The translations under genes were made by a program, and so were the position numbers. Positions 13,049 through 62,930 of a stretch of 64,000 nucleotides of DNA are shown here, in pieces. The notes beneath the pieces were generated by a model that saw only the letters and a list, made by a program, of their open reading frames with translations, had not been told where the DNA came from and searched no databases. Positions within the stretch are counted from its first letter, which is position 1. The number at the start of each line of letters is the position of its first letter. This DNA comes from Eledone cirrhosa (Eukaryota). The stretch is taken from contig OZ024742.1 in assembly GCA_964016885.1 (NCBI GenBank), forward strand, positions 228,222,001 to 228,286,000, written 5' to 3'.

Positions 13049-13162
13049 AACATCAGATGTCATTGATATTAAAGAATTCTTTATTCAGATACATCATCTT
13101 TTAAATACTAAAGGAAGTCATTATACTGAACAGATATAAAAAGGGAGTGAAAAAGAAAAATT

Positions 13163-14680
13163 ATGGAAAATGAATTATGGGAGAAACAGGTTAAGATTAA
13201 AACAGAATCCAAAAGGAATGATTATGCTGATGAGGTACTGAAAGAAATAGGAAAAACATCATACCATTGTGATGTCTCTAGTAAATTATTCTCCAAAAAA
13301 TCTCAACTAACTTTTGACAGATATATTCATAGAGGTGAGAAGCTATATCACTGTGACATATGTAGTAAATCATTCTCTGCAAGTAATGACTTTTCTATAC
13401 ACAAATGTACAAGAGAAAAACCATATCACTGTAATATCTGTGGTAAATCATTCTATACTAATACTAACTTGACTTTACACAAACATATTCATACAGGCAA
13501 GAAGCCATTTCACTGTGATATCTGTAGTAAATCATTTTCTCAAGGAAGTAACTTAACTAGACACAAGCGTATTCACACAAAAGAGAAGCCATATCACTGT
13601 GATATTTGTACTAAATCATTCTCTGAAGGAGGCAACTTAACTTTACACAAACGTATTCATACAGGAGAGAAGCCATTTCACTGTGATATCTGTGATAAAT
13701 CATTCTCAGATGGAAGTGCCTTTACTGTACACAAAAGAATTCATTCAGGAGAGAAGCCGTATCACTGTGATATCTGTGGTAAATCATTCTCTCGAAATGC
13801 TGTGTTAACAATACATAAACGTATTCATACAGGTGAGAAGCCATATCACTGTTATATCTGTGGTAAATTATTCTCTACTAATTCATGCTTAATTATACAC
13901 AAACGTATTCATACAGGAGAGACACCATATCACTGTGATATCTGTGGAAAATCATTCTCTATAAATCGAAATTTAACTGTACACACAAATATTCATACTG
14001 GAGAGAAACCATATCACTGTGATATCTGTGGTAAGACATTTTCTGAAAGTGGTAACTTAATTGTGCATAAACGTACTCACACTGGAGAGAAGCCATATCA
14101 CTGTGAAGTCTGTGGTATTTCTTTTTCTAGAAGTAATGATTTAACTAAACACAAGCGTATTCACACAGGAGAGAAGCCATATCACTGTGATATCTGTGGT
14201 AAATCATTTTCTGGAAGTGGTGACTTAACTAAACACAAAAGTATTCATACAGGAGATAAGTTGTATCTCTGTGATATTTGTGGTCAATCATTCTCTCAAG
14301 CAAATACTTTAACTAGACATCGACGTATTCATACAGGAGAAAAGCCATATCATTGTGAAATCTGTGGTAAATCATTCTCTGATAATACTCCCTTAACAAA
14401 TCACATACGTACTCATACAGGAGAGAAGCCATTTCACTGTGATATCTGTGATAAATCTTTTTCTCAAAGTGGGGATTTGACTTGTCACAAACGTGTTCAT
14501 ACAGGTGAAAAACCGTACCACTGCGATATCTGTGGTAAATCATTCTCTAGAAATGGAACCTTAACTATACACAAGCGTATTCATACAGGCGAAAAGCCAT
14601 ATCATTGTGATATCTGTAGTAAATCATTCCCTCAAAGTAGTGACTTAACTAAACACAAACGTATTCATACTGCAGTATAG
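13163..14680 (+). CDS. C2H2 zinc-finger protein A, 505 aa, 2 degenerate plus 15 canonical fingers
   Basis: Uninterrupted ORF of tandem 28-aa [10 protein letters not shown]...[10 protein letters not shown] repeats; short N-terminus with no recognisable effector domain. Confidence 0.95.
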   Translation: MENELWEKQVKIKTESKRNDYADEVLKEIGKTSYHCDVSSKLFSKKSQLTFDRYIHRGEKLYHCDICSKSFSASNDFSIHKCTREKPYHCNICGKSFYTNTNLTLHKHIHTGKKPFHCDICSKSFSQGSNLTRHKRIHTKEKPYHCDICTKSFSEGGNLTLHKRIHTGEKPFHCDICDKSFSDGSAFTVHKRIHSGEKPYHCDICGKSFSRNAVLTIHKRIHTGEKPYHCYICGKLFSTNSCLIIHKRIHTGETPYHCDICGKSFSINRNLTVHTNIHTGEKPYHCDICGKTFSESGNLIVHKRTHTGEKPYHCEVCGISFSRSNDLTKHKRIHTGEKPYHCDICGKSFSGSGDLTKHKSIHTGDKLYLCDICGQSFSQANTLTRHRRIHTGEKPYHCEICGKSFSDNTPLTNHIRTHTGEKPFHCDICDKSFSQSGDLTCHKRVHTGEKPYHCDICGKSFSRNGTLTIHKRIHTGEKPYHCDICSKSFPQSSDLTKHKRIHTAV

Positions 14681-16790: not shown

Positions 16791-17124
16791 ATATAAAGCA
16801 TGACAACCTCACTATTGTGCCATAATAAAATGAACCCTGTGCATTTGGTAAAGTGCAGGAATGTATATAAGATCCTGGTCCCCCCCCCCCCCCCCCCCCC
16901 AGCAAGTCAAAGATCCCAATTACTCTGATTAATTACTGACTTGGTTTGTAACAACCCATTAAACCATTAAACCAGGGCTGGATCAATCATTAAGCATCAA
17001 GAGAAATGAGGTACCATAGATTTACCATGGACCATATAGTGTAGATGAGCCATTGGGACCAACAACAAATAAATATATATATTAAAAAATATGCCTCGAC
17101 ATCATCATCCAGGAGCTAAGTTGA

Positions 17125-17453
17125 AACTTTGATATCTGTGGTCAGTTATTCTCATACAAATGCCTTAACTAGACATAAATGCATTTATATAGAAGAAAAA
17201 CCATATCATTGTGATATCTTTAGAAAATCATTTTCTAATAAAACTCATTTAAAAGATCACATCCACATTCATACAGGAGACGGACCATATCTCTGTGGCA
17301 TTTGTGGAAAATCTTTCTCTCACAGTGGTGACTTGATTCGTCACAAACACCTGATACAGGAGAGAAGTGATGTCACTGACATCTGTGGCAAATCATTTTC
17401 TAGCGGCGTTCACAATCGCATTCATACAGGAAAAAAGCTATATCACTGTGATA
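17125..17453 (+). pseudogene. C2H2 ZNF pseudogene fragment, paralog of the gene ending at 352
   Basis: [30 protein letters not shown]...KSFSSGVHNRIHTGKKLYHCD. Damaged fingers, small indels, truncated at both ends. Confidence 0.85.
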
Positions 17454-17486
17454 AATTAAGCTATAATTTGATTGGTTTATATTTTG

Positions 17487-17528
<42 letters not shown>

Positions 17529-19146: not shown

Positions 19147-19474
19147 TATATATATATATACATATATATTATATATATATATATACATATATATTATATA
19201 TATACATATATATTATTAGATAAAATATATACCATTTCTTCTCCCAAATAGCATAATTAACCATATAAAAAATCAATTAAACCAAGCTATAAGAATAAAG
19301 GCTCTTATGAAGAAATCTCCGACAAATAACCGAAAGTAGCCTCTTCGCGGTGGCCCCAATAGAGTATTTATCCAACATTTCGACAGCATGTAGAAACTGA
19401 CTAAATATACCATCAACCATACACAATTAGGTGTAAATTCAAACTTAGAAGAAATGTGTACATACTGTAATTAT

Positions 19475-19552
19475 ATCTCTACCATGGTTTCATCCGTATT
19501 TTTAGACATCCAATTAATAGGAAATGTCCAGAGTTAGGATTCATCAGGAGAC
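19475..19552 (-). ncRNA. Type I hammerhead ribozyme motif, in element ~19215-19560
   Basis: Minus strand reads GTCTC-CTGATGA-ATCC...GGAT-GAAA-CCATGG-TA-GAGAT. Complete core, GUA triplet, palindromic stem III. Confidence 0.85.
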
Positions 19553-19727
19553 AAACTCATATATATTATATATATACATATATATTATATATATACATAT
19601 ATATTATATATATACATTTATACATGTATATTATATATATAGATATATATTATATATATACATATATATTATATATATATATATATTATATATTTATATA
19701 CATATATATTATATATATATATATACA

Positions 19728-19758
<31 letters not shown>

Positions 19759-19994
19759 CATATATATTATATATATATATACATATATATTATATATATA
19801 TATATATATTATATTTAATACATTAACAGAGAAAGCTTTAAGCAATACTCCGACCGGCTTCCGTCTCACTCAACAAACATTAGGATATACCTTAGTATAA
19901 TCCCAATTATACGTTTGGGGTGCTAACTATACGTATTTTACGGATAGCCAGTTGTATTATTTTATATGAGACATAATTAAAATACATCTCTCTT

Positions 19995-20116
19995 TCCAAA
20001 CGATTGTTTCATTATAAGTTTTCTACAAATTGGGAAAATAATGTCCTGGTTATGTAGAAGCCTACACATAGTCCGTAGGAATATATGTAGGTGGGCACTT
20101 ATAAATCATCAGTGGA
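19995..20116 (-). ncRNA. Type I hammerhead ribozyme motif with branched stem II, in element ~19815-20250
   Basis: Minus strand reads TCCA-CTGATGA-T-TTATAAGT...ACTTATAA-T-GAAA-CAATCG-TT-TGGA. Two hairpins lie inside stem II; U-U at its base. Confidence 0.7.
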
Positions 20117-20253
20117 TGCCCGACAAATATCGATATAAAAAAAACCTTACCGATATTAATGTCCAGCGATGGTACCCCTCCGTGCTAGAATGACCGCCAA
20201 ATTTGAAATTCCAGCAGTCTCACAATGAGAAATATCACACTGCCATCATTATA

Positions 20254-22266
20254 TATGAGGAGAATAAATGGGAAAAAGATAGTCTGCCTCAAATCGATCC
20301 AATAGAAGGACCAGCGGTGCAAGTTGAAGGTAGTATAATAAGTAAGGCAATCAAAGATATGAAGACAGGCAAGGCAGCTGGACCTTTGGAGATAGTTGCT
20401 GAGATGTTGAAGGCATCTGGTGGGACACACTATGGTCACCCGTATAGTTAACCAAGTAATACAGAATGGGGTCATACCGAAAGACTGGCGTAGCAGCATC
20501 ATCATTAACTGCTACAAGGGTAAAGGGGATGCTCTAGATAGGGGAAACTATAGAGGCATTAAGTTAGTTGACCAGGTCATGAAGGTCACAGAAAGAGTTA
20601 TAGCGCAACTAATCAGAGAGCGAATTGATCTAGATGAAATGCAGTTTGGGTTTGTGTCAAGTAAAAGTACCACAGACGCTCTTTTCCTTGTACGACAACT
20701 ACAAGAGAAGTACCTAGCTAAAAGTAAACCCCTCTACTTAGCTTTTGTAGACCTGGAGAAAGCTTTTGACAGAGTCCCCGCTCCATTATCTGGTGGGCTC
20801 TTAGAAAACTATGTGTAGATGAATGGCTTGTGAGAGCTATACAAGCTATGTTAGAATTAACAATGAATATTGTGAAGAATTTAGTGTAAAAGTTGGCGTT
20901 CATCAAGGCTCTGTCCTTAGCCCCCTCTTATTTATTATTGCCCTTCAGGCTATAACAGGAGTTCAAGACCGGCTGCCCATGGGAACTCCTATACGCAGAT
21001 AATCTAACGCTCATAGCTGAATGAATGGCTGAACTAGAGAAGAAATTCCAAACATGGAAGCATAGTCTAGAATCAAAAGGCCTTAAAGTTAACTTGTCTA
21101 AGACTAAAGTTCTAGTTTGTAGAAAGGAAAATAGGGCACAGATGCCCTCAGGGAAATGGCCATGCTCAGTGTGTAGGAAAGGAGTAGGCAGAAATTCCAT
21201 TTTATGTCCCAAATGCAAAGTATGGGTACATAAAAGATGTAGTGGGATCACAGGTAAACTAAGAACGTAGACTTTATATGTGGCCAATGCTCAGGTGCAA
21301 TAAGTAGCAAGTGTCCAAAGGATACTAGCTCCTTCTCTTGCCCAGATGGTTCTATAGAAATAGTAGACACTTTCCGTGACCTGGGTGACGAAATCAGCAG
21401 TGGTGGAGGGTGCTCTGAAAGTACAGTAGCCAGAGTCAGAACGGGATGGAAAAAGTTCAGAGAGCTTATACCGCTGTTGGCCACAAAAGGTTTCTCTCTA
21501 AAAATGAAAGGCAGATTGTATGATGCCTGAATGCGAACAGCAATGCTACCTGGCAATGAGACATAGGCATTACGTGCAGAAGACCTGCGTAGACTGGAAA
21601 GGAACGAAGCATGCATGCTCCGTTGGATATGTAATAGTAATATACGTGAACAGCAAAGCATAAATGAACTAAGTGAGAAATTAGGAATAAGAGGGATCAG
21701 ATGCTATTTACTTGAGAGAAGACTACGTTGGTATGGTCACGTGATGCACATGAAAGACGACAGCTGCATAAAAAAGTGCAGGGCGATCAAAATTGATGGT
21801 AGTTACGGAGTAGGTAGACCCAGAAAAACTTGGGATGATCTGATAGATTCCGACCTTACACACTTACATCTCTAAGACAATGTCACTGGACCGAGATCTT
21901 TGACGCTACGCAGTAATACAGAAGACCCGCCTTGCCTATGTACAAAGCGAAACCTACAGTCAGTAAGCACCTCTTAACACCCCAATCCACTACCCCTACC
22001 CTATCCTCCCACTCCCACCAACAGCACGAGATAATGAGATCGTGTAGGTGTCACGACAAAAAACACACAGTCCACGCGGTAAAAAGTTCCCAGTTCCACA
22101 CTAAATGTGGTTGGTGTTAGGAAGGGCTTTCAGCCGTAGAAAACCTGCCAGATAGTCCTATATGAGCGAGACACGGTCACCCGACCAACCTTGCCTCAAG
22201 TGGGACAACTCCCGTCTAACCCATGCTAGCGTGGAAAATGGACGTTAAACGAAGATGATGATGATG
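20254..22266 (+). mobile_element. Degenerate 5'-truncated RTE LINE
   Basis: RT fragments (NYRGIKL, FVDLEKAFDRVP, WELLYADN, PHD-like finger) with stops and frameshifts; (GAT)n tail; same subfamily as 44898-47758. Confidence 0.92.
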
Positions 22267-22443
22267 GTCATATACATATATATTATATATATATATATAT
22301 ACATATATATTATATATATATACATATATATTATATATGTATATATATATATAATATATATACTGCCACGTCACAGTTCTTAGCCATTTTGAATTCGTTT
22401 CTGGCGGGCATCATTTAAGAAATATCTTTGTCCAAGTGAGTTT

Positions 22444-22524
22444 GTTTCCTGATGAGTTCGAAGCTCGAGAATTTATCCTTGATAGGATATTTCCAAAAGC
22501 GAACGAAACCCTAAGGGTAGAAAC
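22444..22524 (+). ncRNA. Type I hammerhead ribozyme motif, in element ~22364-22800
   Basis: GTTTC-CTGATGA-GTTCG...CGAAC-GAAA-CCC-TAA-GGG-TA-GAAAC. Canonical core, all three stems perfectly paired, GUA triplet. Confidence 0.92.
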
Positions 22525-22887
22525 GTAATCCTGGTATGTGTATATGCATTTTTTCTTCTAACTTTAATTTTATACCTAATTGTGTATGGTTGACGGTATA
22601 TTTAATCGATTTCCATGTGCTATTGAAATGTTGGGTAAATATTCTATAGCGGTTGATCGCTGTCGTTTATCTACTATTTCTTCATAGGTGCCTTTTAATC
22701 TCATAGCCTGGTTTAATTGGTTTTTTGTGTGGTTGATTATGCTAATTGGGAGAGGAAATGGTGTATATATATTATCAAATGATTCTATGGACATACTTTA
22801 TAGTATATATTATATATATATATATACACATATATGTATACATATATATATATTATATATAGTATATATTATATATATATATACGTA

Positions 22888-23015: not shown

Positions 23016-23351
23016 CATACATACATATACACACATATACATATATATACATATATATATACATATATATACATATATATATACATATATATAGACATAT
23101 ATATATACATATATATATAATATATATATATACATATATATACACATATATATATATATAATATATATAATATATATATATATAATATATATATATAATA
23201 TATATATATTGTTATACTTTGGGAGGGTCATATTGCCAATAAGAAACACACGCACCAGTTGCTTTCACTTCAATTTATTATAATAAATTTATAAATTTAG
23301 GAATTTATAAATTTCCGGTTGGTTCCACAACCAGATGGTTGTTTATATATT

Positions 23352-23394
23352 GTCAAAGTTCTTTCGTCACACATTCTGTGACCTCTTCAGTGAC
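23352..23394 (-). ncRNA. Minimal hammerhead motif in the left pseudo-LTR
   Basis: Minus strand reads GTCA-CTGAAGA-G-GTCACA-GAATG-TGTGAC-GAAA-GAAC-TT-TGAC. Confidence 0.8.
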
Positions 23395-23546
23395 TGGGGA
23401 TTCTTTTCTTTGTTTTAGTGCCTCTCCTTTGTTCTGTCCTACGCCATCTTGTTTCTGTGTATGTGTTGTGTGCTCAGTCTGCGCATGCGCCACATCTGGG
23501 TGTCTGTGTGTGTTTATATTCGTTTATTTATTTGTTTATTTACATG

Positions 23547-24250
23547 TTACTGGTTGCTTGTTTGTTCTATGTGCGTGTGTGTTTTCATTTTGTCCTTAAT
23601 TGTAAGTTGTGATGTTGCTTTCCACTCATGTTTTCTATTTAATTTTGGTTGTAATTCTTTTATGTTTATTGCCTCTGTGATTTGTCTAAACATTGCGTCT
23701 TTTCTGTGTGTAGATTCTATTTTTATTTCTATGTTCTCTAATTTACCCTTATGTTCTATTTTAACATGTTGGTAGAGTACAGATGATTCTTTACTATCTT
23801 GAAGGTCTCGCCAGTGTTCATTTATCCGTTCCCCTACACTACGAGCTGTCTCAGCTATGTACACTATATTTTTATCTCTACATTGTCCTTCAGTACATCT
23901 TATGCTATATACTACATTTCTAGTTTTACAGTTAATATGGGGGCTTAATTTACAGGTTATACATTTCTTATCTATACAGGGGGGTCTTTGAAAAGGGTAT
24001 GTCTTGCTAATAAGTGTTTTTATGGAGGTACCTGGTCTTTCTACTAAATATTGAGTTTATGTTTATCTAGGGCCCTTCTAAATTTGTAAGCTAATTCACC
24101 TCTAGGGGTTGTATCGATGAACATTACACTCTGGTATTTATTGCTATCATACCATGAGTTTATTCTATTAGCCTTATTCCTAGTTCTTTCTATTCTATTC
24201 CAAAATTTGCTCCTATACAAGGGGCAGGTCCCATTTGTGTCATTATTTAC
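23547..24250 (-). pseudogene. PLE ORF C-terminus: linker, Cys-rich finger, GIY-YIG endonuclease (one frameshift near 24045)
   Basis: PLYRSKFWNRIER...SVMFIDTTPRGELA...CIDKKCITC...CKTRNVVYSIRC...VYIAETARSVGERINEH...RQITEAINI...LNRKHEW. Confidence 0.88.
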
Positions 24251-24253
24251 GTC

Positions 24254-24986
24254 CCGAGTTTACACCAACACCATCAACACCGATGTAAGAAGATTACAGC
24301 TCACCAAAAAGCAAGCAGATAGGCTAAAACGAACACTAATTCTAAACATAAAAAAGAAGATCTATAGAGAATTAAGTCATCAAGAAAAACATAAGCGTAA
24401 CCTAATACAAGAAATAATTAAGATCACCACACCAAGAGGAAAACTAATATTTATAAACCTTATACGTCCTGAAGAACAGTACATTGTTCAAGAATGTGAT
24501 AAGCACTTTAACAAGAAACTAAAGTGGCTTAAACAGATAAAACTAAATCAAGATACTGTAGAGAATATCAATAGATATCCCGAAATAAATATGGCCGACA
24601 TCTCATTAACAGATGAGTTCAACAACAACAACACAAATATATACGGCAACACTACGGTCGACTCTGATGAATTATCTGTATTACAACTGCCGCCTAGGTA
24701 TGCCACATTCAATAAGGTAAATATGATTAGATGTTTGTCAGAAATAGAAAAATCATTTACAAAATTACGTTGGAGCCTCAAAAACAAAAACAAAAGTAAC
24801 ATACACACACACATATACAACACACATCCCAACAACAACAGACACACAGACACAAACAACAATAACAACAACACACACATCAACAATAATAACATACTCA
24901 GAAACAACAACAACAAACACGCAGATACAAACAACAATAATAACATACACGGAGACAACAACAACAACACACAACAACAGCACACA

Positions 24987-25019
<33 letters not shown>

Positions 25020-25478
25020 CACACCCATTCAATGCGTCTCACCACCACCACAATCTTAACAAACACACAGGCACAGAAAACAGGTAATGACAGTAGCACA
25101 GAAATAAGGGAAGGTAATAGGACTGAAAGAAGAAGGGAGACTATGGACAGAGAAAATAACCAAGACGAACACACAGACACACAAAATAGAGTAGATAATA
25201 ACAATGAGCCAGAGGAAAGAGACAGGAGTAATAATGAGAGACATAGAAACAACCATGAGGCTGTTGGTGGAAATAGAAATAGAAACAACACAACTAACAA
25301 TAACAATAGCACTAGTACACATAAAGCAGCAGCCTGGAACTCTACTTTTTATAATCCCTCCGATAAGTCGTTCGACCTGCGACGAGTCCACGCCACGACT
25401 TTAGCTTTTAACAAACGCACGAAATTGCCGTCGCAGGTCGATGAACAAACAGAAGCACAATTTAGTATAGCTAAATGA
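24254..25478 (+). pseudogene. Probable N-terminal (pre-RT) part of the PLE ORF with an Asn/Thr-rich insert
   Basis: Open for about 400 codons and enclosed by the pseudo-LTRs. Motifs KKLKWL, EIEKSFTKLRW and FYNPSDKSFDLRRVHATTLAFNKRTKLP resemble PLE pre-RT regions from memory. Codons 24117-24253 of the listed ORF are only the antisense of the other arm. Confidence 0.65.
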
Positions 25479-25668
25479 AAACACACACGCACATAGAACA
25501 AACAACCAACCAGTAACATGTAAATAAACAAATAAATAAACGAATATAAACACACACAGACACCCAGATGTGGCGCATGCGCAGACTGAGCACACAACAC
25601 ACACACAGAAACAAGATGGCGTAGGACAGAACAAAGGAGAGGCACAAAAACAAAGAAAAGAATCCTCA

Positions 25669-25711
25669 GTCACTGAAGAGGTCACAGAATGTGTGACGAA
25701 AGAACTTTGAC
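25669..25711 (+). ncRNA. Minimal hammerhead motif in the right pseudo-LTR
   Basis: GTCA-CTGAAGA-G-GTCACA-GAATG-TGTGAC-GAAA-GAAC-TT-TGAC. Confidence 0.8.
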
Positions 25712-25904
25712 AATATATAAACAACCATCTGGTTGTGGAACCAACCAACCAACCGGAAATTTATAAATTTATTATAATAAATTGAAGTGAAAGCAACTGG
25801 TGCGTGTGTTTCTTATTGGCAACATGACCCTCCCAAAGTATAACAATATCGGTTTCAACACACGTTTTCAGATAAAAAATTTTGCTAAACAAATTCAGAA
25901 ACGA

Positions 25905-26019
<115 letters not shown>

Positions 26020-38280: not shown

Positions 38281-38406
38281 GGGGATTTCTTTCTTCGTTT
38301 CTGTGCCTTTCCTTTCTTCTATCCTACGCCATTTTGTTTGTGTGTCACAAACAAAATGGCGTAGGATAGAAGAAAGAAAGGCACGGAAACGAAGAAAGAA
38401 ATCCCC

Positions 38407-44897: not shown

Positions 44898-47758
44898 CAA
44901 AAAACGAGACAATCACTTGATCACCTACAGATCAGGGGAACATACCAGCCAGGTAGATTATATCCTTACCAGAAGACGTGACAGAGTGTCTGTTGTAAAC
45001 ACTAAATCCCTCCCCCATGAAGAATGCACCTCCCAACATACTCATAATTAGCGACCTCATAGTCAGGACGAGACGTACTCGACAGCAGAAGAGGACTATC
45101 CTCAGGAGAAAAATATGGAAGCTAAAGGACCCCACAGCCAGAAATAAATTTAAAAGCATATTACTTGATGCTTTCGACAGTAAGGAAGAGCATTTAGAGT
45201 CGTACAATATAGAGGAACAGTGGGAATTCCTGAAAGCAAACCTGCTGATGGCGGCAGACGAAGTCTGTGGCTGGAGCAGGCCTATAGGCAGGAGGAGAGT
45301 AACATGGTGGTGGAACAGTAAGGTGGAGGAGTCATTTAAGGCCAAAAAGCAGGCTTGGAAAGTATGGCGGGATGGGGGAAGTAGAGAAGACTATCAAGTG
45401 GCCAGGAGGGAAGCTAGGAGACAAGTGTACTTCGCAAGAAGGGAAGCAGAGGAAAGAAAGTTCAAGCATGTTCTACAACGCAAGGACCAAAAACGTGAGG
45501 TGTTCGGGATTGCTAGGCAATGTGTCAAGGAAAACCGTGATATTGTTGGGGAGAAGTGTGTACTTAATGATGATGGTGTACTTGCCATCACTGATGCTGA
45601 TAAGAAGGTAGCTTGGAAGTGTCACTAAGAAAGGCTACTAAATGAGGAGAATAAATGAGAGAAATACAGTCTCCCCCACATCGACCCAATAGAGGGACCA
45701 GCAGTGTTAGTCGAAGGTAGTATAATAAGTAAGGCAATCAAATATATTAAGACGGGTAAGGCGGCTGGGCCTTCGGAAATAGTTGCTGAAATGCTGAAAG
45801 CCTCTGGAACGGTGGGACACACCATGGTCACCCGGATAGTAAACCAAGTCATACAGAATGGGGTTGTTCCGAAGGACTGGCGTAGCAGCATCATCATTAA
45901 CTGCTACAAGGGTAAAGGAGATGCCCTAGATAGGAGTAACTATAGAGGCATTAAATTAATCGACCAGGTCATGAAGGTCACAGAAAAAGTAATAGCGCAA
46001 CTAATCAGAGAGAGAATTGATCTAGATGAAATGCAGTTCGGGTTTGTGTCAGGCAAAAGTACCACAGACGCTCTTTTCATTGTACGACAACAACAGGAGA
46101 AGTACCTAGCTAAAAGTAAACCCCTATACTTAGCTTTTGTCGACTTGGAGAAAGCCTTCGACAGAGTCCCCCGTTCCATTATCTGGTGGGCTCTTAGAAA
46201 ACTAGGTGTTGATGAATGGCTTGTGAGAGCTATACAAGCCATGTATAAAGAAACAGTCAGCAAGGTTAGAATTAACAACGAATATAGTGAAGAGTTTAGC
46301 GTAAAAGTTGGTGTTCATCAGGGCTCCGTTCTTAGCCCCCTACTATTTATTATTGCCCTTCAGGCTATAACAGTGGAGTTCAAGATCGGCTGCCCATGGG
46401 AACTCCTATACGCAGATGATCTAACGCTCATAGCTGAATCAATGGCCGAACTAGAGAAGAAATTCCAAACATGGAAGCATGGCCTAGAATCAAAAGTCCT
46501 TAAAATTAACCTGTCTAAGACTAAAGTTCTAGTTTGTAGGAAGGAAAATAGGGCGCCGGTCCCATCCGGGAAATGGCCATGCTCAGTGTGTAGGAAAGGA
46601 GTAGGTAGAAACTCCATTTTATGTCCCAAATGCAAAGTATGGGTGCATAAAAGATGTAGTGAGATCACAGGTAAGCTAACTAAGAACATAGATTTTATAT
46701 GTGGCCGGTGCTCTGGTGCAATAAGTAGCAGCAAGTGCCCACAGAATACTAGCTCATTCAATTGCACAGATGGTTCTATAGAAATAGTGGACAGCTTCCG
46801 TTACCTGGGTGACAAAATCAGCAATGGGGGAGGGTGCTCTGAAAATACAGTAGCTAGAGTCAGAACTGGATGGAAAAAGTTCAGAGAGCTTATACCACTA
46901 TTAGCCGCTAAAGGGTTCTCCCTAAAAATGAAAGGCAGGCTGTATGATGCCTGCATACGAACAGCAATGTTGCATGGCAGTGAGACCTGGGCATTGTGTG
47001 CAGAGGATATACGCAGACTAGAGAGGAACGAAGCTTGCATGCTCCGCTGGATGTGTAATAGTAATATACGTGAACGGCAAAGCATAAACGAACTAAGGGA
47101 AAAATTAGAAATAAGAGGGATCAGATGTTGTTTACTCGAGAGAAGGCTACATAGGTATGGTCACGTGATGCGCATGAAAGACGACAGCTGTATAAAAAAG
47201 TGCAGGGCAATAAAAATAGACACTAGCCACGGAGTAGGCAGACCCAGAAAAACCTGGGACGACTTGATAAATTCCGACCTCACACACTTACACCTCTCCA
47301 AGACAATGTCACTGGACCGAGATCTTTGGCGCTACACAGTAATAGAGAAGACCCGCCTTACCTAATTACAAAGTAAAACCTACTACAGTCAGTAGGCACC
47401 TCTAACAAAATACACCCCCGTCCCTCTACCCCCGCCCCATCCACACCACCCCTTTCAATGTAAAGTTATGTTGGTACCACAGCATCCAGGCCGAAACAAA
47501 TGAGGTCGTGTAGGTGTCACAAAAAAACACACAGTCCACGCTGTAATGTGGCCGTGTAGGTAACACGGTAAAAACCTCCCAGTCCCACACTGTAAATGTG
47601 GTTGGTGTTAGGAAGGGCATCCAACTGTAGAAAACCCGCCAGACAGTCCTATGCGAGCAAGACAACCACTCTTGCCTCAAGTGGGAAAACTCCCGTCCAA
47701 ACCCATGCAAGCACGGAACACGGACGTTAAACGATGATGATGATGATGATGATGATGA
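44898..47758 (+). mobile_element. Longest RTE LINE copy (APE C-terminus to 3' tail), disrupted
   Basis: SQVDYILTRR and EECTSQH (APE end), linker ORF 45017-45628, RT frame 45704-47365 with YADD and a PHD-like finger. Stops at ~45626 and ~45656. Confidence 0.95.
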
Positions 47759-49128: not shown

Positions 49129-49823
49129 TTTGTTGTGTCACCAGCACAACCACCTTACAGTATGGATTGTGTGCTTTTGTTGTGGCACCAGAGCAGCATA
49201 CAAGGTGGACTTTGTGCATTTGTCATGCCAATGGCATTGTGGGAGATCAGATGTCGAACATCATCCACCATATAAGGTGGTAGTGCTGAAGTCATGATAA
49301 AATATTCCCACTACACACTTAAGTGGATGGTGTTAGGAAGGATATCCAGCTATAGAAACCATGCTCTCAGTAATAGCTGTAGTGTGGTTATTGTTAGCAA
49401 GGACATCCAGTCATAGAAACCAAGCCATAAATGGAATGCAAGAGCAATTAATGGTCAAATTACTAGTTAAACCTCAAAATTCAAGAGCTTGTCTAACCTA
49501 TGCAGGCATGGAAAATGGATGTTAAACGGTGATGATGAATCTTATGGTGTATCTGTAATCTATAAATATGTAGAAATCACAAAAGATTGTATTATGTGAT
49601 TTTAATTACAAATTAAAAGGTAATCTTCAATTGTTCATGTAAGTGTTTATATTAATAGTTTATCTATATAAAAATGTAGTAACATTTCCACTGTTGAATC
49701 TCTATATTTAAAGTACCTTCATATCTTATACTGTTTCTTTATTATTTCAGAACATCAGATGTCATTGGTATTAAAGAATTCTTTATTCAGATACATCATC
49801 TTTTAGAGTGAAAAAGAGAAATT

Positions 49824-51173
49824 ATGGAAAATGAATTATGGGAGAAACAGGTTCAGATTAAAACAGAATCCAAAACGAATGATTTTGCTGATGAGGTACT
49901 GAAAGAAATAGGAAAAACATCATACCATTGTGATGTCTCTAGTAAATCATTCTCCAAAATATGTCAACTAACTTCTCAGAGATATATTCCTAGAGGTGAG
50001 AAGCTATATCACTGTGACATCTGTAGTAAATCATTCTCTGCAAGTAATGACTTTTCTATACACAAATGTACAAGAGAGAAACCATATCACTGTGATATAT
50101 GTGGTAAATCATACTGTAGAAATATTAACTTGACTTTACATAAACATATCCACACAGGCAAGAAGCCATTTCACTGTGATATATGCAGTAAATCATTCTC
50201 TCAAGGAAGTAACTTATCTAAACACAAACGTATTCATACGAAAGAGAAGCCATATCATTGTGGTATCTGTGATAAAAATTTCTCAGATGGAAGTGCCTTA
50301 AATGTACACAAAAATATTCATACAGGTGAGAAGCCATATCACTGTGATATCTGTGATAAATCATTCTCTACTAATTCATACTTAATCATACACAAACGTA
50401 TTCATACAGGAGAGACACCATATCACTGTGATATCTGTGGGAAATCATTCTCTACAAATAGAAATTTAACTGTACACAAAAATCTTCATACTGGAGAGAA
50501 GCCATATCTCTGTGATATCTGTAATAAGTCATTTGCTGGAAGTGGTAACTTAACCGTTCACAAACGTATGCACACAGGAGAGAAGCCATATCACTGTGAT
50601 ATCTGTGGTATTTCTTTTTCTAGAAGTAATGTTTTAACTAAACACAAACGTATTCATACAGGAGAGAAGCCATATCACTGTAATATCTGTGGTAAATCGT
50701 TTTCTGGAAGTGGTGACTTAACTAAACACAAACCTGTTCATACAGGAGATAAGTTATATCTCTGTGATATCTGTGGTCAATCATTCTCTCAAGCAAATAC
50801 TCTAACTAGACATAAACGTATTCATACAGGAGAAAAACCATATCATTGTGATATCTGTGGTAAATCATTCACTGATAAGAGTCCCTTAACAAATCACATG
50901 CGTATTCATACAGGAGAGAAGCCATACCACTGTAATATCTGTGGTAAATCATTCTCTCAAAGTGGGGATTTGACTTGTCACAAACGTGTTCATACAGGTG
51001 AGAAACCATACCACTGTGACATCTGTGGTAAATCATTCTCAACAAATGGAACCTTAACTATACACAAGCGTATTCATACAGGTGAAAAGCCATATCATTG
51101 TGATGTCTGTGGTAAATCATACACTCAAAGTAGTGACTTAACTAAACACAAGCGTATTCATATTGCAGTATAG
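49824..51173 (+). CDS. C2H2 zinc-finger protein B, 449 aa, 2 degenerate plus 13 canonical fingers; paralog of A
   Basis: Intact ORF collinear with 13163-14680; splice acceptor at 49750; AATAAA at 51504. Confidence 0.95.
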
Positions 51174-58274: not shown

Positions 58275-59050
58275 TATTTCTTTATTTGCCACAAGGGCGC
58301 AAAAAGATGGGGACAAATACAGAGTGGGGTGTTTACATACAAGCGTGTAAAAAATAGAATTAATAACAAATAACAATTAACAATTGAAATCCCCAATAGG
58401 GGGGAGGCGTTACATATGGGTTGTACACACCCCGAAAAAATGTACAACCCTCATCTCCAGGAGCACAAAGAGTGAGCGCTCCTTTCCTCTCTTCCTCTTT
58501 TTCCTCAACCTACAGGTTTATATAGAGAGAAGGCCCAACCACTCGGGCCATTCTTGCCACATTCACCTACCTTTTCGGAAAGTTTGCTGGGGTGCAGCAC
58601 CTCTCTCTCCACTCTGATTCTTCTTCTAAAGTGATATTTGAAGAAGCGAACCAGTTGTTCGCTGGAGAGAAAGGTGTCTGACCTTAGCCCTTTCAGCCTC
58701 ATCCACTATATAACCTCTTTCACCATAGCCATTACACAGAGGAAAACCTCCTCTCCTTTGTTTTTGAAGGAGGGTGGCGGTTTGATCGTAATAATGGACT
58801 CGATGGTCAACTGGATTTGTCCCACCTGCGACAGTAGCCGTTCTGTGTAGCTCTACAGGTCGGTAACGTCCGGGCAGTGTACGAATGCGTGCGCGACGGT
58901 TTCCTCGTCTCGCACGCATCTCGGACAGATCTTTTTCGAGGGATCCCTGCCCGCGCGTCCGTGTCTGTAGAGCTTGTCTCGAACGGGTAGAGCTCCTCGG
59001 TAGCACTGCCAGGACAGGGACTTTTGGAAGTTGTCCATCGGTCCCGGGCG
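58275..59050 (-). mobile_element. Tx1/L1-clade LINE 3' fragment
   Basis: WQCYRGALPVRDKL...CPRCVRDEETVAHAFVHC (zf-RVT CCHC); same family as 6050-6707. Confidence 0.8.
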
Positions 59051-59054
59051 GAAG

Positions 59055-62000
59055 GTCCTACCGAACCACGTTGTCTGCGCAGAAGAAATTCCAGACACTC
59101 GTCAATGACGAACATTTGGGTGATCGGACGCCCACACAGCTTCTGCGTCGCATGAGAGAGCTGGCGGAAGACGCCTCAACTGACAGCGCCCTCCTTAAAC
59201 AGCTTTTCTTTTCAAGGCTGCCGCCCGGTGTTCAGGCGATGTTAGCGCCTACGATGGAGAGACTACCACAGGCGACCAGCTAGCGGCTTCGGCCGACAAA
59301 ATTATAAGTTTCACTGGAAACCCTGCCTCCTATGTTGCACCTCAGCCACCGGCTGCGGTCTCTTCGTTCTCTCGAGCGGCTGCCGTCCACACCGATCAGT
59401 CGCTCGCGTCGGTGGCAATTCTTCAAGCCATAGAGCAACTCACCAAAGAGGTGAGAAAATTGAGTACCTCCAGGGCTCATTCGCCCAGACGTTGCTTTCA
59501 GAGCCGTTCGCCCTCGCCACTCAGCCGCCCCACAAGTAGGCCAGAACTGTGCTACTACCACAGCCGTTTTGGCGCGGCAGCACACGCTTGTAAACAACCG
59601 TGTTCATTTTCCAACCAGGGAAACGGATTTCAGGAGACCTGAGCACGGCACAGTCTCCTTTGACGCTCCCAAATAATCGTGCGTTCTTTATAACAGACAC
59701 GGATTCCCAAGCACGTCGTTTGGTTGACACTGGCGCAGCTTGCAGCATATGGCTGTTAAAACTTCTCAAAGAGAAGCCGCCACTTTCACCCATCTCGCTG
59801 CAAGCTGTAAATCATTCACCTATCCCCACGTACGGTCAAATTTCTCGTTCTTTGAACCTGAAATTGCGCAGAGACTTCACGTGGATTTTCACTGTCGCCG
59901 ATCTGCTTACCCTATTCTAGGCTCGGATTTCCTGCACCACTATAACCAGTTAGTAGTGGATATGTGCAGACGACGCTTGTCTATAAAGACGTACGGGCAA
60001 ATCTCGCTTCCTCTCAAATTCCTAAATCTTCGTAGGGATTTTAAGTGGATTTTTACGGTTGGCGATTTGTCATATCCCATCTTAGGAGCGGATTTCCTAC
60101 ACAACTTCTCTTTGACTGTGGACGTCCGTGGCCAACGCCTGGTGGATAACATCACCGGTTTTTCAATTCATGGGCAGGAAGCCAATGCTCCAATAGTCAG
60201 CCCCATGTTCTTCGTCGCTGCCGCTGGAGACGCCTACCATTCGTTGCTGGGTTCTTTCCTGGAGCTCACGGATGGAAATTTTCGAGTCACTGAGTCAACA
60301 CACTCGACCGAACATTTCGTTTCCACCACCGGTGCTCCAGTGTTTTCGCGTCCACGCCGCTTACCGGCGGAAAAATTAAAGGCAGCACGGTCCGAGTTCG
60401 ACCATATGCTGCAGCTGGGCATTATTCGCCCATCTACGAGTCCTTGGCTTCACCGTTACACATGGTTCCCAAGACTTCCGGCGACTGGAGACCCACTGGG
60501 GATTATAGGAGGTTAAATGCCATGACCGTCCCGGATAGGTATCCCATTCCCCATCTCCAGGATTTCGCATCTTCACTGCAGGGGTGTAAGATTTTTTTAA
60601 AGCTAGATTTAGTGCGAGCCTACCACCAAATTCCGGTCAGGAAGGAAGATATTCCGAAAACGGCGATTACAACCCCTTTCGGATCCTTCGAATTTTTGAC
60701 CATGCCTTTCGGACTCAGGAACGCCGCTAGCACTTTTCAGCGGTTGATTGACAAGGTCACTCGTGGTCTGGACTTCGTTTATGCTTACATAGATGATATT
60801 CTCGTCGCTAGTTCCTATCCGGAAGAGCATATGCGCCACATGCATCTCTTATTTCGGCTACTTCAGGATTACCGCGTTCGTGTGAATCCAGCAAAGTGTG
60901 TTTTCGGTTCCACTTCCCTAAATTTTTTAGGCCACCACATCGACGCCGAAGGTATTAGGCCGCTCCCTCAGCAAGTTCAAGCCATACAGGAGTTACCTCC
61001 GCCTACTACACTTCACCAGTTGCGTCACTTCTTAGGCCTAATCAATTTCTATAGGCGTTTCGTTCCTCATTGTGCTAATTTGCTATCTTCCCTTACTGAC
61101 ATTTTAAAAAATCGTCGTAAGAAGAATGAGGATATTTCCTTGACACAAGGACAGCTTCAAGACTTTCAGACTGCCAAGACAGCACTCGCTAGTTCATCTT
61201 TGCTAGCCCACCCGGTACCAGAGGCCAAGCTTTCGCTTTGTGTTGATGCATCTGATACCGCTGTGGGAGCAGTTTTACAGCAGTTCTACGCTGGAAACCA
61301 ACAACCTTTGGCATTTTTCTCGAGGAAGCTGAAACCAGCAGAAACGCGTTATAGCACGTTTGGGCGGGAATTATTAGCCATATATCTGTCGGTGAAACAT
61401 TTCTCTCATATTCTTGATTTGAGAAATTTTACAGTTTTAACCGACCACAAACCGTTGACCTTCGCTATGAGGGCTAAAGCCGACAGATATTCGCCCAGAG
61501 ATACAAGGCACCTGGACTACGTTTCACAATTTACAAACGATATCCAGCACATTGCTGGCTCGCATAACATAGCTGCAGACGCATTGTCACATTTGCCAAT
61601 CAGCTCCATCTCGTCATCCCAGTAGATCGACTTAGGTCGTTTAGCTACAGACCAACCTGCACTCCAATCGTTGGACACTCTTTCTGCTGAATTTGCGACT
61701 TGCATTTTCAAATATCTGCCCTTGTCCACCACCGACAGGCAGATTCTATGTGATGTATCTACGGATTCACCACGACCACTTGTTCCTGAGACTCACCGTC
61801 AAATTGTGTTCCTGGCTTTGCACAACATTTCTCACCCAGGATCTGCTGTCACAGTAAAGCTCATAACAGCCAGATTCTTCTGGCCAAATATGAGGCGCGA
61901 CATTGCTGCTTGGTGCCGTTCCTGCATCGCTTGCCAGAAATCGAAAATCCATAGACACATCCGGGCTCCACTTGTTACTTTCAGTACTCCTGATGCTCGG

Positions 62001-62930
62001 TTTCAGCACATACACATTGACCTCGTTGGACCTTGGCCATTCAGCAGTGGATATTCATACATATTGACGTGTGTCGATCGTTTTTCGCGATGGCCTGAAG
62101 CCATCCCCTTACAAGACATGACTGCTGAGACTGTAGCACGTGCCCTGGTATCAGGGTGGATTACCCGCTTTGAGGTACCAACTACAGTCACCACAGACCG
62201 TGGTAGACAATTCGAGTCCCATCTCTTCTCTGAGCTCACAAAGATAATTGGAGCTCAACGGATTCGGACCACAGCCTATCATCCTGCTTCAAACGGAATG
62301 GTGGAACGATTCCACCGCCAATTAAAGGCCGCTCTTCGCGCCTATCCAGGCTCTCAACGTTGGAGCGAGTACCTTCCTATTGTGTTGTTAGGAATTCGGT
62401 CATCAATAAAGGAGGACCTGGGGTTCTCCTCGGCCGAATTACTTTACGGTGCTCCTCTAGTGTTGCCTGGGAAAATGCTTGCCCCTGTTGATCTTGCTTT
62501 CCAAGATCCGCTTTCCTACGTATCCCGTCTGCGTTCTTATTTTCAGGACCTGCCGCCGATGGATACGAGGAAACAAACTGTAAAACCTGCGGTCCCGAGG
62601 GATATTGCCTCGTGGACCCATGTGTTCGTAAGGAACGATGCTGTGAGACCACCCCACACACAACCCTACTCTGGATCCTACCGTGTGTTAGCACGTACTG
62701 ACAAACATTTCACTGTAGACGTTAAGGGGTCCAAAGAGACAATTTAGGTGGATAGACTAAAAAAGAGCACACAATGACGCTCATACACCCGAACCACAAA
62801 TACCCCAATCTTTCTCTCTTGTGCATACACCTGCTCCTTCTGCCCCACCTTCACCTACATACAAGACCACGACCCGTTCCGGTCGGAGAGTCCACTGGCC
62901 CAAAAAGTTCTGCCAAACTGTTTTCATGTG
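59055..62930 (+). mobile_element. Degenerate Gypsy LTR retrotransposon internal region (CsRn1-like gag-PR-RT-RH-IN); no LTRs seen
   Basis: Gag LGDRTPTQLLRRM and CYYHSRFG...CKQPC; PR LVDTGA; [13 protein letters not shown]; RH VDASD...RELLAIY; [28 protein letters not shown]. Several frameshifts and stops. Confidence 0.95.
59618..59659 (+). other. Programmed -1 ribosomal frameshift signal (gag-pol)
   Basis: G GGA AAC is in gag phase and pol is in the -1 frame. A 7-nt spacer precedes the stem AGGAGAC/GTCTCCT. Confidence 0.75.

What the first reader, a model, noticed from the sequence alone, without database searches (positions are those of the whole stretch)
19215..22800. Two diverged homologous elements whose hammerheads covary in all three stems
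Seen: 19215-19560 (minus) and 22437-22780 (plus) align along their length, but the stems differ while staying paired. Stem I is GTCTC/GAGAT vs GTTTC/GAAAC; stem II ATCC/GGAT vs GTTCG/CGAAC; stem III CC-AT-GG vs CCC-TAA-GGG. CUGAUGA, GAAA and the GUA triplet are invariant, and both have an extra hairpin inside stem II. Inference: selection for self-cleavage in the source elements. The 22444 copy is the best candidate for a currently active ribozyme.
Basis: partly seen in the sequence, partly recalled or inferred. Interest (0 to 1): 0.75.

Follow-up and report, generated by a model that had tools for sequence, protein, structure and literature searches.

The report
Octopus hammerhead retrozyme, two subfamily copies
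These are shortened copies of two subfamilies of a very common non-coding repeat in an octopus-like genome; its hammerhead self-cutting RNA motif has kept its base pairing as the subfamilies diverged, and the repeat was likely pasted into TA microsatellites by Penelope-type jumping-gene enzymes, a known kind of element whose cutting is untested here.

Summary
Both type I hammerheads are present as described; the two elements are 72% identical. They are 5'-truncated copies of two subfamilies (80% identical) of a 641-679-nt non-coding tandem unit. The genome holds 1,438 exact core matches and 2,815 exact matches to a 3' anchor; reversed controls give 0. Across subfamilies, compensatory changes occur in stems I and II and in the helix inserted in loop II (6 events on a tree). 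None occur in stem III, where A and B differ only in length. A further ~180-nt rod 3' of the ribozyme is conserved on the same strand. Insertions have two fixed 3' ends in (TA)n, variable 5' ends, partial tandems and inverted heads, as Penelope-like elements leave. 5' ends ignore the cleavage site, so the template was likely an RNA circle or an uncut multimer. None of seven autonomous families sampled shares the sequence. The 22444 motif is one of 60 copies with the same core and stems, and B copies decay neutrally. Verdict: new member of the animal non-LTR retrozymes. This scan noted such repeats before, in this and other genomes.

The parts
19213..19559 (-). Copy A: 5'-truncated copy (about unit positions 292-646 of 655) of subfamily A, between two (TA)n tracts; lacks the last ~15 nt of the usual 3' end
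   Evidence: 6 substitutions from the subfamily majority
19475..19552 (-). Type I hammerhead A: 5-bp stem I, 4-bp stem II opening with A-U, helix inserted in loop II, 2-bp helix III with palindromic CAUG loop; predicted cut after A19480
   Evidence: sequence; constrained fold; pair counts
19243..19431 (-). Predicted long imperfect hairpin (rod) between the ribozyme and the fixed 3' end, copy A
   Evidence: z -3.06, 0 of 200 shuffles; family consensus fold
22362..22808 (+). Copy B: 5'-truncated copy (unit positions 224-679 plus 6) of subfamily B, between (TA)n tracts; 15 nt deleted relative to the subfamily
22444..22524 (+). Type I hammerhead B: 5-bp stem I, 5-bp stem II opening with G-C, helix inserted in loop II (about 22467-22494), 3-4-bp near-palindromic helix III; predicted cut after A22519
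   Evidence: sequence; fold; 60 genomic copies with the same core and stems
22575..22750 (+). Predicted rod hairpin, copy B
   Evidence: z -2.03, 3 of 200 shuffles
22800..22808 (+). Main fixed 3' end of the family (unit junction, TATA-like), running into (TA)n; inferred start site of reverse transcription
   Evidence: 59 of 87 sampled segments end here, 23 about 100 nt further on
19820..22270 (+). Unrelated decayed LINE (RTE-like by recalled motif resemblance) lying between the two copies; not part of either element
   Evidence: broken RT frames such as 20411-20818, similar to the 568-aa frame at 45659-47365; limits read from the sequence

Best explanation
The two stretches are independent, 5'-truncated copies of two subfamilies of a high-copy, protein-less ~660-nt tandem repeat with one conserved type I hammerhead per unit, likely a non-LTR retrozyme copied into (TA)n by Penelope-like (PLE) enzymes. 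Shown: unit, subfamilies, copy numbers, compensatory changes, strand-specific folding, insertion anatomy. Inferred cycle: a tandem source locus is transcribed; the hammerheads would cut it to unit length (A-type as dimers through the palindromic helix III, B-type also as monomers); the unit would be ligated to a circle; a PLE RT/GIY-YIG protein would nick (TA)n and start cDNA synthesis internally at one of two TATA-like sites about 100 nt apart; synthesis runs through the former cut site and stops at variable points, sometimes after more than one turn. Selection acts on the source RNAs; inserted copies, including these two, are most likely inert.
For: Unit 679 nt (B) and 655 nt (A), 522 of 650 aligned bases identical, no shared open frame. 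114 full units fall into 14 groups, 641-679 nt, 70-91% identical. 1,438 core matches and 2,815 anchor matches, controls 0; a tandem array spans C1:92.986-93.015 Mb at ~657-nt spacing. Pairing 91.5% vs 31-48% for slid controls; 9 same-branch double changes vs 2.7 expected, 6 compensatory. The ribozyme region is less conserved in sequence (66-68%) than most of the unit (72-90% in 10 of the other 11 windows) while staying paired. Circular fold of the unit: z <= -2.6 in 6 of 7 representatives on the ribozyme strand, -1.6 to +0.1 on the other strand (12 shuffles each). Rod: alignment energy -21.8 vs -4.9 +/- 2.4, antisense -2.5; 155 G-U vs 9 A-C cells. In a sample picked without regard to the ribozyme, 82 of 87 segments end at two sites, 78 of these 82 run into TA repeats, and 21 of 79 loci have a head-to-head inverted copy. 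5' ends within 10 nt of the cut site: 3 seen, 2.3 expected; 49 of 52 pass it and 4 of 4 pass a second one. Autonomous PLEs with long frames are abundant here, and family C shows the same two 3' ends, TA target and inverted head. PLE tails mark internal RT start sites (PMC11167929).
Against: No cleavage, transcript or circle was observed. No autonomous element with this sequence as its pLTR was found in seven families or in 137 upstream flanks. In the anole PLE, hammerhead cleavage is not needed for insertion and unprocessed RNA is the main substrate (PMC11167929). Eight of nine Xenopus retrozyme dimers did not cleave (10.64898/2026.07.22.740005). The predicted share of the active fold is low: 3% (B), 0.2% (A), without tertiary contacts. 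Expanded subfamilies R2 and R10 mostly have an A-A mismatch or shifted register at 10.1-11.1. The rise in stopping rate after one unit is not specific: p 6e-4 at 655 nt but 1e-4 at 500 nt. Double changes in the rod are few (6 pairs, 48 of 500 shuffles reach this).
Confidence: 0.72

Rival explanations
1. Same non-autonomous PLE parasite, but copied from uncut linear multimeric or read-through RNA. The hammerhead is a protein-assisted or rarely cutting structure kept for RT binding or folding, and no circle is involved.
For: Crossing of the cut site fits an uncut multimer equally well. PAc uses unprocessed RNA and its ribozyme cuts only with protein (PMC11167929). Low predicted active-fold share. 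Subfamilies with a weakened 10.1-11.1 pair still expanded.
Against: The catalytic core and GUA/GUC site are kept in the majority type of every subfamily parsed over 10-30% divergence, which is more than a binding hairpin needs. Related mollusc retrozymes cleave and accumulate as circles (PMC7229834).
Confidence: 0.18
2. The copies are solo or truncated pLTRs of an autonomous Penelope-like (for example Hydra-clade) element that was not sampled.
For: Most PLE insertions are 5'-truncated. The published Hydra-1_Obim ribozyme has a similar helix III (acca-a-tggt) and targets (TA)n (PMC8557442 supplement). Only seven autonomous families were examined.
Against: Copies longer than one unit continue into another copy of the unit, never into coding sequence (23 of 82 exceed 655 nt; no shared coding flank among 137). 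All 14 groups keep the same 641-679-nt period.
Confidence: 0.06
3. A satellite spread at the DNA level (unequal crossing-over, replication slippage in TA tracts), with the hammerhead a relic of a PLE end.
For: A ~30-kb tandem array and segmental duplications exist. Li et al. discuss satellite-type expansion.
Against: Dispersed copies with two fixed 3' ends, random 5' ends and inverted heads; strand-specific structure and compensatory changes.
Confidence: 0.03
4. The 22444 ribozyme is functional in place, cutting a host transcript.
For: Intact core and the more stable helix III.
Against: One of 60 such copies. Core decays at the neutral rate in B copies. No evidence of transcription; position inside a TA tract among other repeats.
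Confidence: 0.03

Closest known systems
Metazoan non-LTR retrozymes (Cervera and de la Pena 2020, PMC7229834; Li, Clavereau and Pollet 2026, 10.64898/2026.07.22.740005)
   Same: Non-coding tandem unit with one type I hammerhead, low GC (0.34-0.36), thousands of copies as monomers, dimers and arrays, short or palindromic helix III, self-paired predicted circle, co-occurrence with autonomous PLEs.
   Different: Unit of 641-679 nt against about 170-400 nt reported for invertebrates (within the 51-972 bp range of Li et al.). About 30-nt helix inserted in loop II. Clear PLE insertion signature (two fixed 3' ends, tail of about 100 nt, inverted heads, TA target). Conserved rod before the 3' end. Cleavage and circles are shown for coral, mussel and axolotl, not here.
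pLTR hammerheads of EN+ Penelope-like elements (Cervera and de la Pena 2014, PMC4209133; Hydra clade incl. Hydra-1_Obim, Craig et al. 2021, PMC8557442)
   Same: Type I fold, palindromic helix III, many divergent families per genome, partial tandems, inverted 5' copies, tail, (TA)n target.
   Different: No RT or GIY-YIG frame and no sequence match to the pLTRs of seven autonomous families of this genome; six motifs of these elements were not found in the Craig supplement (line breaks in the file could hide a match). Larger stem II domain than minimal PLE hammerheads. Tail about 100 nt rather than 30-40 bp.
PAc, Poseidon element of Anolis (Frangieh et al. 2024, PMC11167929)
   Same: Two internal RT start sites that define the genomic ends; AT-rich target; no read ends at the hammerhead site.
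   Different: PAc is autonomous and its start sites are not homologous to the target; here both ends are TATA-like and merge with the TA target, so priming by microhomology is possible (inference).

Membership tests
Type I hammerhead ribozyme | Core CUGANGA, GAAA, NUH in type I order | tested here: met
   Both copies; majority type of all subfamilies parsed
Type I hammerhead ribozyme | Three helices around the core, supported by covariation | tested here: met
   Stems I and II covary; helix III is paired but invariant
Type I hammerhead ribozyme | Tertiary contact between stem I bulge and loop II | tested here: inconclusive
   An A-rich strand 5' of the 3' arm of stem II is nearly invariant and stem I can extend past a bulge; no contact was modelled
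Type I hammerhead ribozyme | Self-cleavage | not testable with these tools
   Needs an in vitro assay
Non-LTR retrozyme | [quoted passage not shown] | tested here: met
   Family level; B pair 724 nt apart on C3. The two window copies themselves are single and truncated
Non-LTR retrozyme | Low GC, high copy number, no protein | tested here: met
   GC 0.34-0.36; 2,815 anchor matches; six-frame translation
Non-LTR retrozyme | Highly self-paired RNA on the ribozyme strand | tested here: met
   58-67% paired, z <= -2.6 in 6 of 7 tested; rod
Non-LTR retrozyme | Expressed as unit-length linear and circular RNA | not testable with these tools
   No run on record as RNA was listed
Non-LTR retrozyme | Sequence relation to the pLTR of an autonomous PLE | tested here: inconclusive
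   No match in seven families sampled; sampling incomplete
Autonomous EN+ Penelope-like element | RT plus GIY-YIG open frame | tested here: not met
Autonomous EN+ Penelope-like element | Insertion signature: fixed 3' ends with tail, 5' truncation, partial tandem, inverted head, microsatellite target | tested here: met
   shows that it works like a PLE passenger, not that it is a PLE

The most novel reading that the evidence does not exclude
An old radiation of at least 14 lineages of protein-less RNA circles whose whole fold is selected (hammerhead with an inserted loop-II helix plus a ~180-nt rod ending about 50 nt before the fixed RT start site), and which recruit by shape alone PLE reverse transcriptases with which they share no sequence. 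The rod would be the RT-recruiting element, and the unimpeded run of cDNA through the cut site would be genomic evidence for rolling-circle copying of a re-ligated RNA.
Probability: 0.25. Interest if true: 0.55.

Novelty: new member of a known kind. Interest (0 to 1): 0.3.

Why it matters
Animal retrozymes and their dependence on Penelope-like elements are already in print, so the class is not new. This family is a good test system: many young subfamilies supply natural compensatory variants, the insertion ends show where reverse transcription starts, and several autonomous PLE families with long open frames are in the same genome. It allows a direct test of two open questions: whether hammerhead cleavage matters for PLE-driven mobility, and what RNA feature a PLE enzyme recognises. 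The loop-II helix also explains why Rfam's hammerhead models miss these motifs (inference).

Tried and rejected
Rfam scan of the window: no hammerhead hit. RNA evidence: no RNA holder listed; the four runs of unrecorded kind, laid on one B unit, gave thousands of short variant contigs and the unit junction, which say nothing on expression or circles. Pfam gave no significant family for the two window PLE fragments and sub-threshold RVT_1 and GIY-YIG hits for relatives; a search for longer homologues of the window GIY-YIG fragment found none. Search for the cognate autonomous element: families C, C', D, E and three further Hydra-like families carry their own 3' ends; not found, not excluded. 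Shared upstream flanks among 137 segments were segmental duplications, overlapping loci or other repeats. Comparing the two passes within 53 longer-than-unit insertions: self more alike than the best other copy in 18, equal in 8, less in 27; uninformative on circle versus multimer. Stopping-rate rise after one unit: not specific to 655 nt. Rejected: A and B as one insertion or a cis dimer (different subfamilies, opposite strands, separate TA tracts); a hidden coding frame in the unit (stops in all six frames); stem III covariation. The search of earlier findings by sequence found nothing. Literature searches listed no paper on cephalopod retrozymes; the library lacks most subscription papers, Repbase could not be searched, and the supplements of the bioRxiv preprint were not seen (its invertebrate sample is stated as three insects and one anthozoan).

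Full report
Observation. Both motifs are in the sequence as written. The two elements align at 71.6% over 359 nt, far above 200 shuffles. Each is a type I hammerhead with core CUGAUGA, GAAA and GUA, and an extra helix in loop II. Rfam missed both at E<=1, and the folding energy of the ribozyme regions alone is unremarkable. The claim of covariation in all three stems is too strong. Between A and B, stem I has one double and one single change and stem II two double changes. In stem III the paired bases are identical and B has three more nucleotides.

What the elements are. The window lies in a 3.0-Gb genome. The nearest named relative of one of its retroelement proteins is from Octopus vulgaris, at 69% identity, so the host is probably an octopod (inference). 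DNA searches returned 40 of 40 scored candidates as 93-100% (B) and 96-100% (A) matches (the 4,202 and 3,940 first-look candidates are not copy numbers). Flanks show that both window copies are 5'-truncated pieces of a tandem unit of 679 nt (B) and 655 nt (A), identical at 522 of 650 aligned bases, with stops in all six frames. A core pattern has 1,438 exact matches and a 3' anchor outside the ribozyme 2,815; both reversed controls give 0. One array spans about 30 kb of contig C1. The 114 full units in the fetched loci form 14 groups of 641-679 nt, 70-91% identical. A and B are different subfamilies on opposite strands in separate TA tracts, with a decayed LINE between them, so they are independent insertions and cannot pair in one transcript.

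Selection on the fold. I aligned 23 hand-picked subfamily representatives; several came from the core-pattern search, which fixes the core and parts of stems I and III. 91.5% of cells pair, against 31-48% when partners are slid; 9 of 21 pairs have a double change (15 of 500 shuffles reach this): 2 in stem I, 3 in stem II, 4 in the inner helix, none in stem III. Because cells count relatives many times, I mapped changes on a tree from the 3' flanks (22 rows; L079 dropped for a short flank): 9 same-branch double changes against 2.7 +/- 1.6 (P=0.0012), 6 of them compensatory. Most subfamilies keep the palindromic helix III ACCAUGGU, the dimer-type arrangement described in PMC4209133 (parts 1-2 of 4 read). 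B's helix III can form alone (-2.9 kcal/mol) and as a duplex; A's only as a duplex. The predicted share of the active monomer fold is low for both, 3% and 0.2%.

Structure beyond the ribozyme. The unit folded as a circle is more stable than shuffles on the ribozyme strand (z <= -2.6 in 6 of 7 representatives tested of 14; 12 shuffles each) but not on the other strand. A rod of about 180 nt 3' of the ribozyme is predicted in both window copies and across 14 representatives: -21.8 against -4.9 +/- 2.4 for column shuffles, -2.5 on the antisense strand, with 155 G-U and 9 A-C cells. Double changes there are few (6 of 48 pairs; 48 of 500 shuffles reach this), and the structure was derived from the same alignment, so this support is moderate.

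Insertion anatomy. I took 95 of the first 100 listed anchor matches, all on contig C1 (five lying in earlier loci were left out, and segments cut by a locus edge were dropped), giving 87 segments. 59 end at the unit junction, 23 about 100 nt further on, 5 elsewhere. Of the 82, 78 run into TA repeats; 21 of 79 loci have a head-to-head inverted copy; 23 of 82 exceed one unit. These are the PLE features listed in PMC8557442 (passages; section 11), and two fixed ends correspond to internal RT start sites in PMC11167929 (parts 1-2 of 4). 5' ends show no pile-up at the cut site: 3 seen, 2.3 expected, 49 of 52 pass it. The template was therefore continuous there, either a ligated circle or an uncut multimer. 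Two tests meant to separate these failed to do so.

Partner. The genome has several autonomous PLE families. Family C (a deleted copy lies at window 23214-25910) has a 995-aa RT plus GIY-YIG frame and the same insertion signature; its linker motif fits Neptune or Nematis. Family E has the CxCX5C linker and lacks CCHH, as the Hydra clade does. None of seven families sampled shares sequence with the A/B unit, and 137 upstream flanks show no common coding sequence. Hydra-1_Obim has a similar helix III and TA target (supplement passages), a lead only.

Are these copies active? Sixty copies carry B's exact core and stems. Among 39 B copies the core mutates at 16/441, the rest at 611/16,785; 20 of 33 spanning copies keep an intact core. 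In the anchor sample 33 of 61 do. For A the core is less mutated (2/442 vs 294/14,770; private changes 2/442 vs 163/14,770; 32 of 34 intact), but most A copies were chosen by likeness to the window's ribozyme stretch. Individual copies thus appear to decay neutrally. Both window copies also lack part or all of the conserved block upstream of the ribozyme, which may be the promoter (speculation; its RFX-, CCAAT- and YY1-like motifs are named from recall).

Comparison and verdict. The family meets the sequence criteria of animal non-LTR retrozymes (PMC7229834: passages and section 14; 10.64898/2026.07.22.740005: parts 1-3 of 5). Cleavage and circles are untested, and 8 of 9 Xenopus dimers in the latter paper did not cleave. 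The passages of PMC3088659 that I saw describe variable stem II lengths but not an inserted loop-II helix; I did not read it whole. Four searches listed no paper on cephalopod retrozymes. Earlier notes of this scan describe the same kind of repeat in this and other genomes; they are not independent evidence. New member of a known kind; interest 0.3.

Noticed in passing
window 23214-25910: Internally deleted PLE of family C with an inverted head; minimal hammerheads at 23390 (-) and 25673 (+), GIY-YIG fragment 23547-24056 (-), N-terminal fragment 24090-25478 (+). A relative with a 995-aa RT plus GIY-YIG frame is at L201:2037-5024; two 3' ends about 60 nt apart.
   Followed up: partly
window 38275 (-) and 38412 (+): Head-to-head pair of family C ends with hammerheads; the long perfect hairpin at 38296-38391 that gives spurious microRNA hits in Rfam is the inversion junction.
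   Followed up: no
window 29068 (+), 35019 (+), 33910 (-): Another hammerhead-like family with a long A/U-rich stem II and a palindromic helix III; also seen in L226.
   Followed up: no
window 47904 (-): Hammerhead-like motif with a TA-palindromic helix III, similar to the 3' ends of a Hydra-like family (L272, L274).
   Followed up: no
window 17624 (+): Hammerhead-like motif with an insert of about 70 nt in stem II and a GUC-type site; stem I has one mismatch (read).
   Followed up: no
G000:C1:92,986,000-93,015,100 (L174, L175): Tandem array of about 45 units of subfamily R2; most units have an A-A mismatch at the base of stem II and many have further stem II lesions.
   Followed up: partly
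L226 (G000:C1:134.27 Mb): At least four young Hydra-like PLE families, each filling the 150 scored places; family E frames reach 1,240 aa; one family has dozens of copies identical over 55 aa.
   Followed up: partly
L243-L265: Two Hydra-like families show no CUGANGA motif of their own within 1.5 kb after the endonuclease, although hammerheads are said to be universal in that clade; one ends in a short, very common TA-inserted sequence.
   Followed up: no
unit positions about 100-240 (window 22362-22390 holds its end): The most conserved non-ribozyme block of the unit, with RFX-, CCAAT- and YY1-like motifs (names recalled); possible internal promoter.
   Followed up: no
window 13151-14680, 17120-17527, 49812-51173: C2H2 zinc-finger frames, two of them close paralogues.
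   Followed up: no
window 58867-62747: Gypsy-like gag-pol remains (protease, RT, RNase H, integrase motifs by recalled resemblance), broken into several frames.
   Followed up: no
G000:C12:17.03-17.49 Mb (L005-L010, L012): Seven near-identical loci about 60 kb apart: a segmental duplication array that carries one B copy.
   Followed up: no
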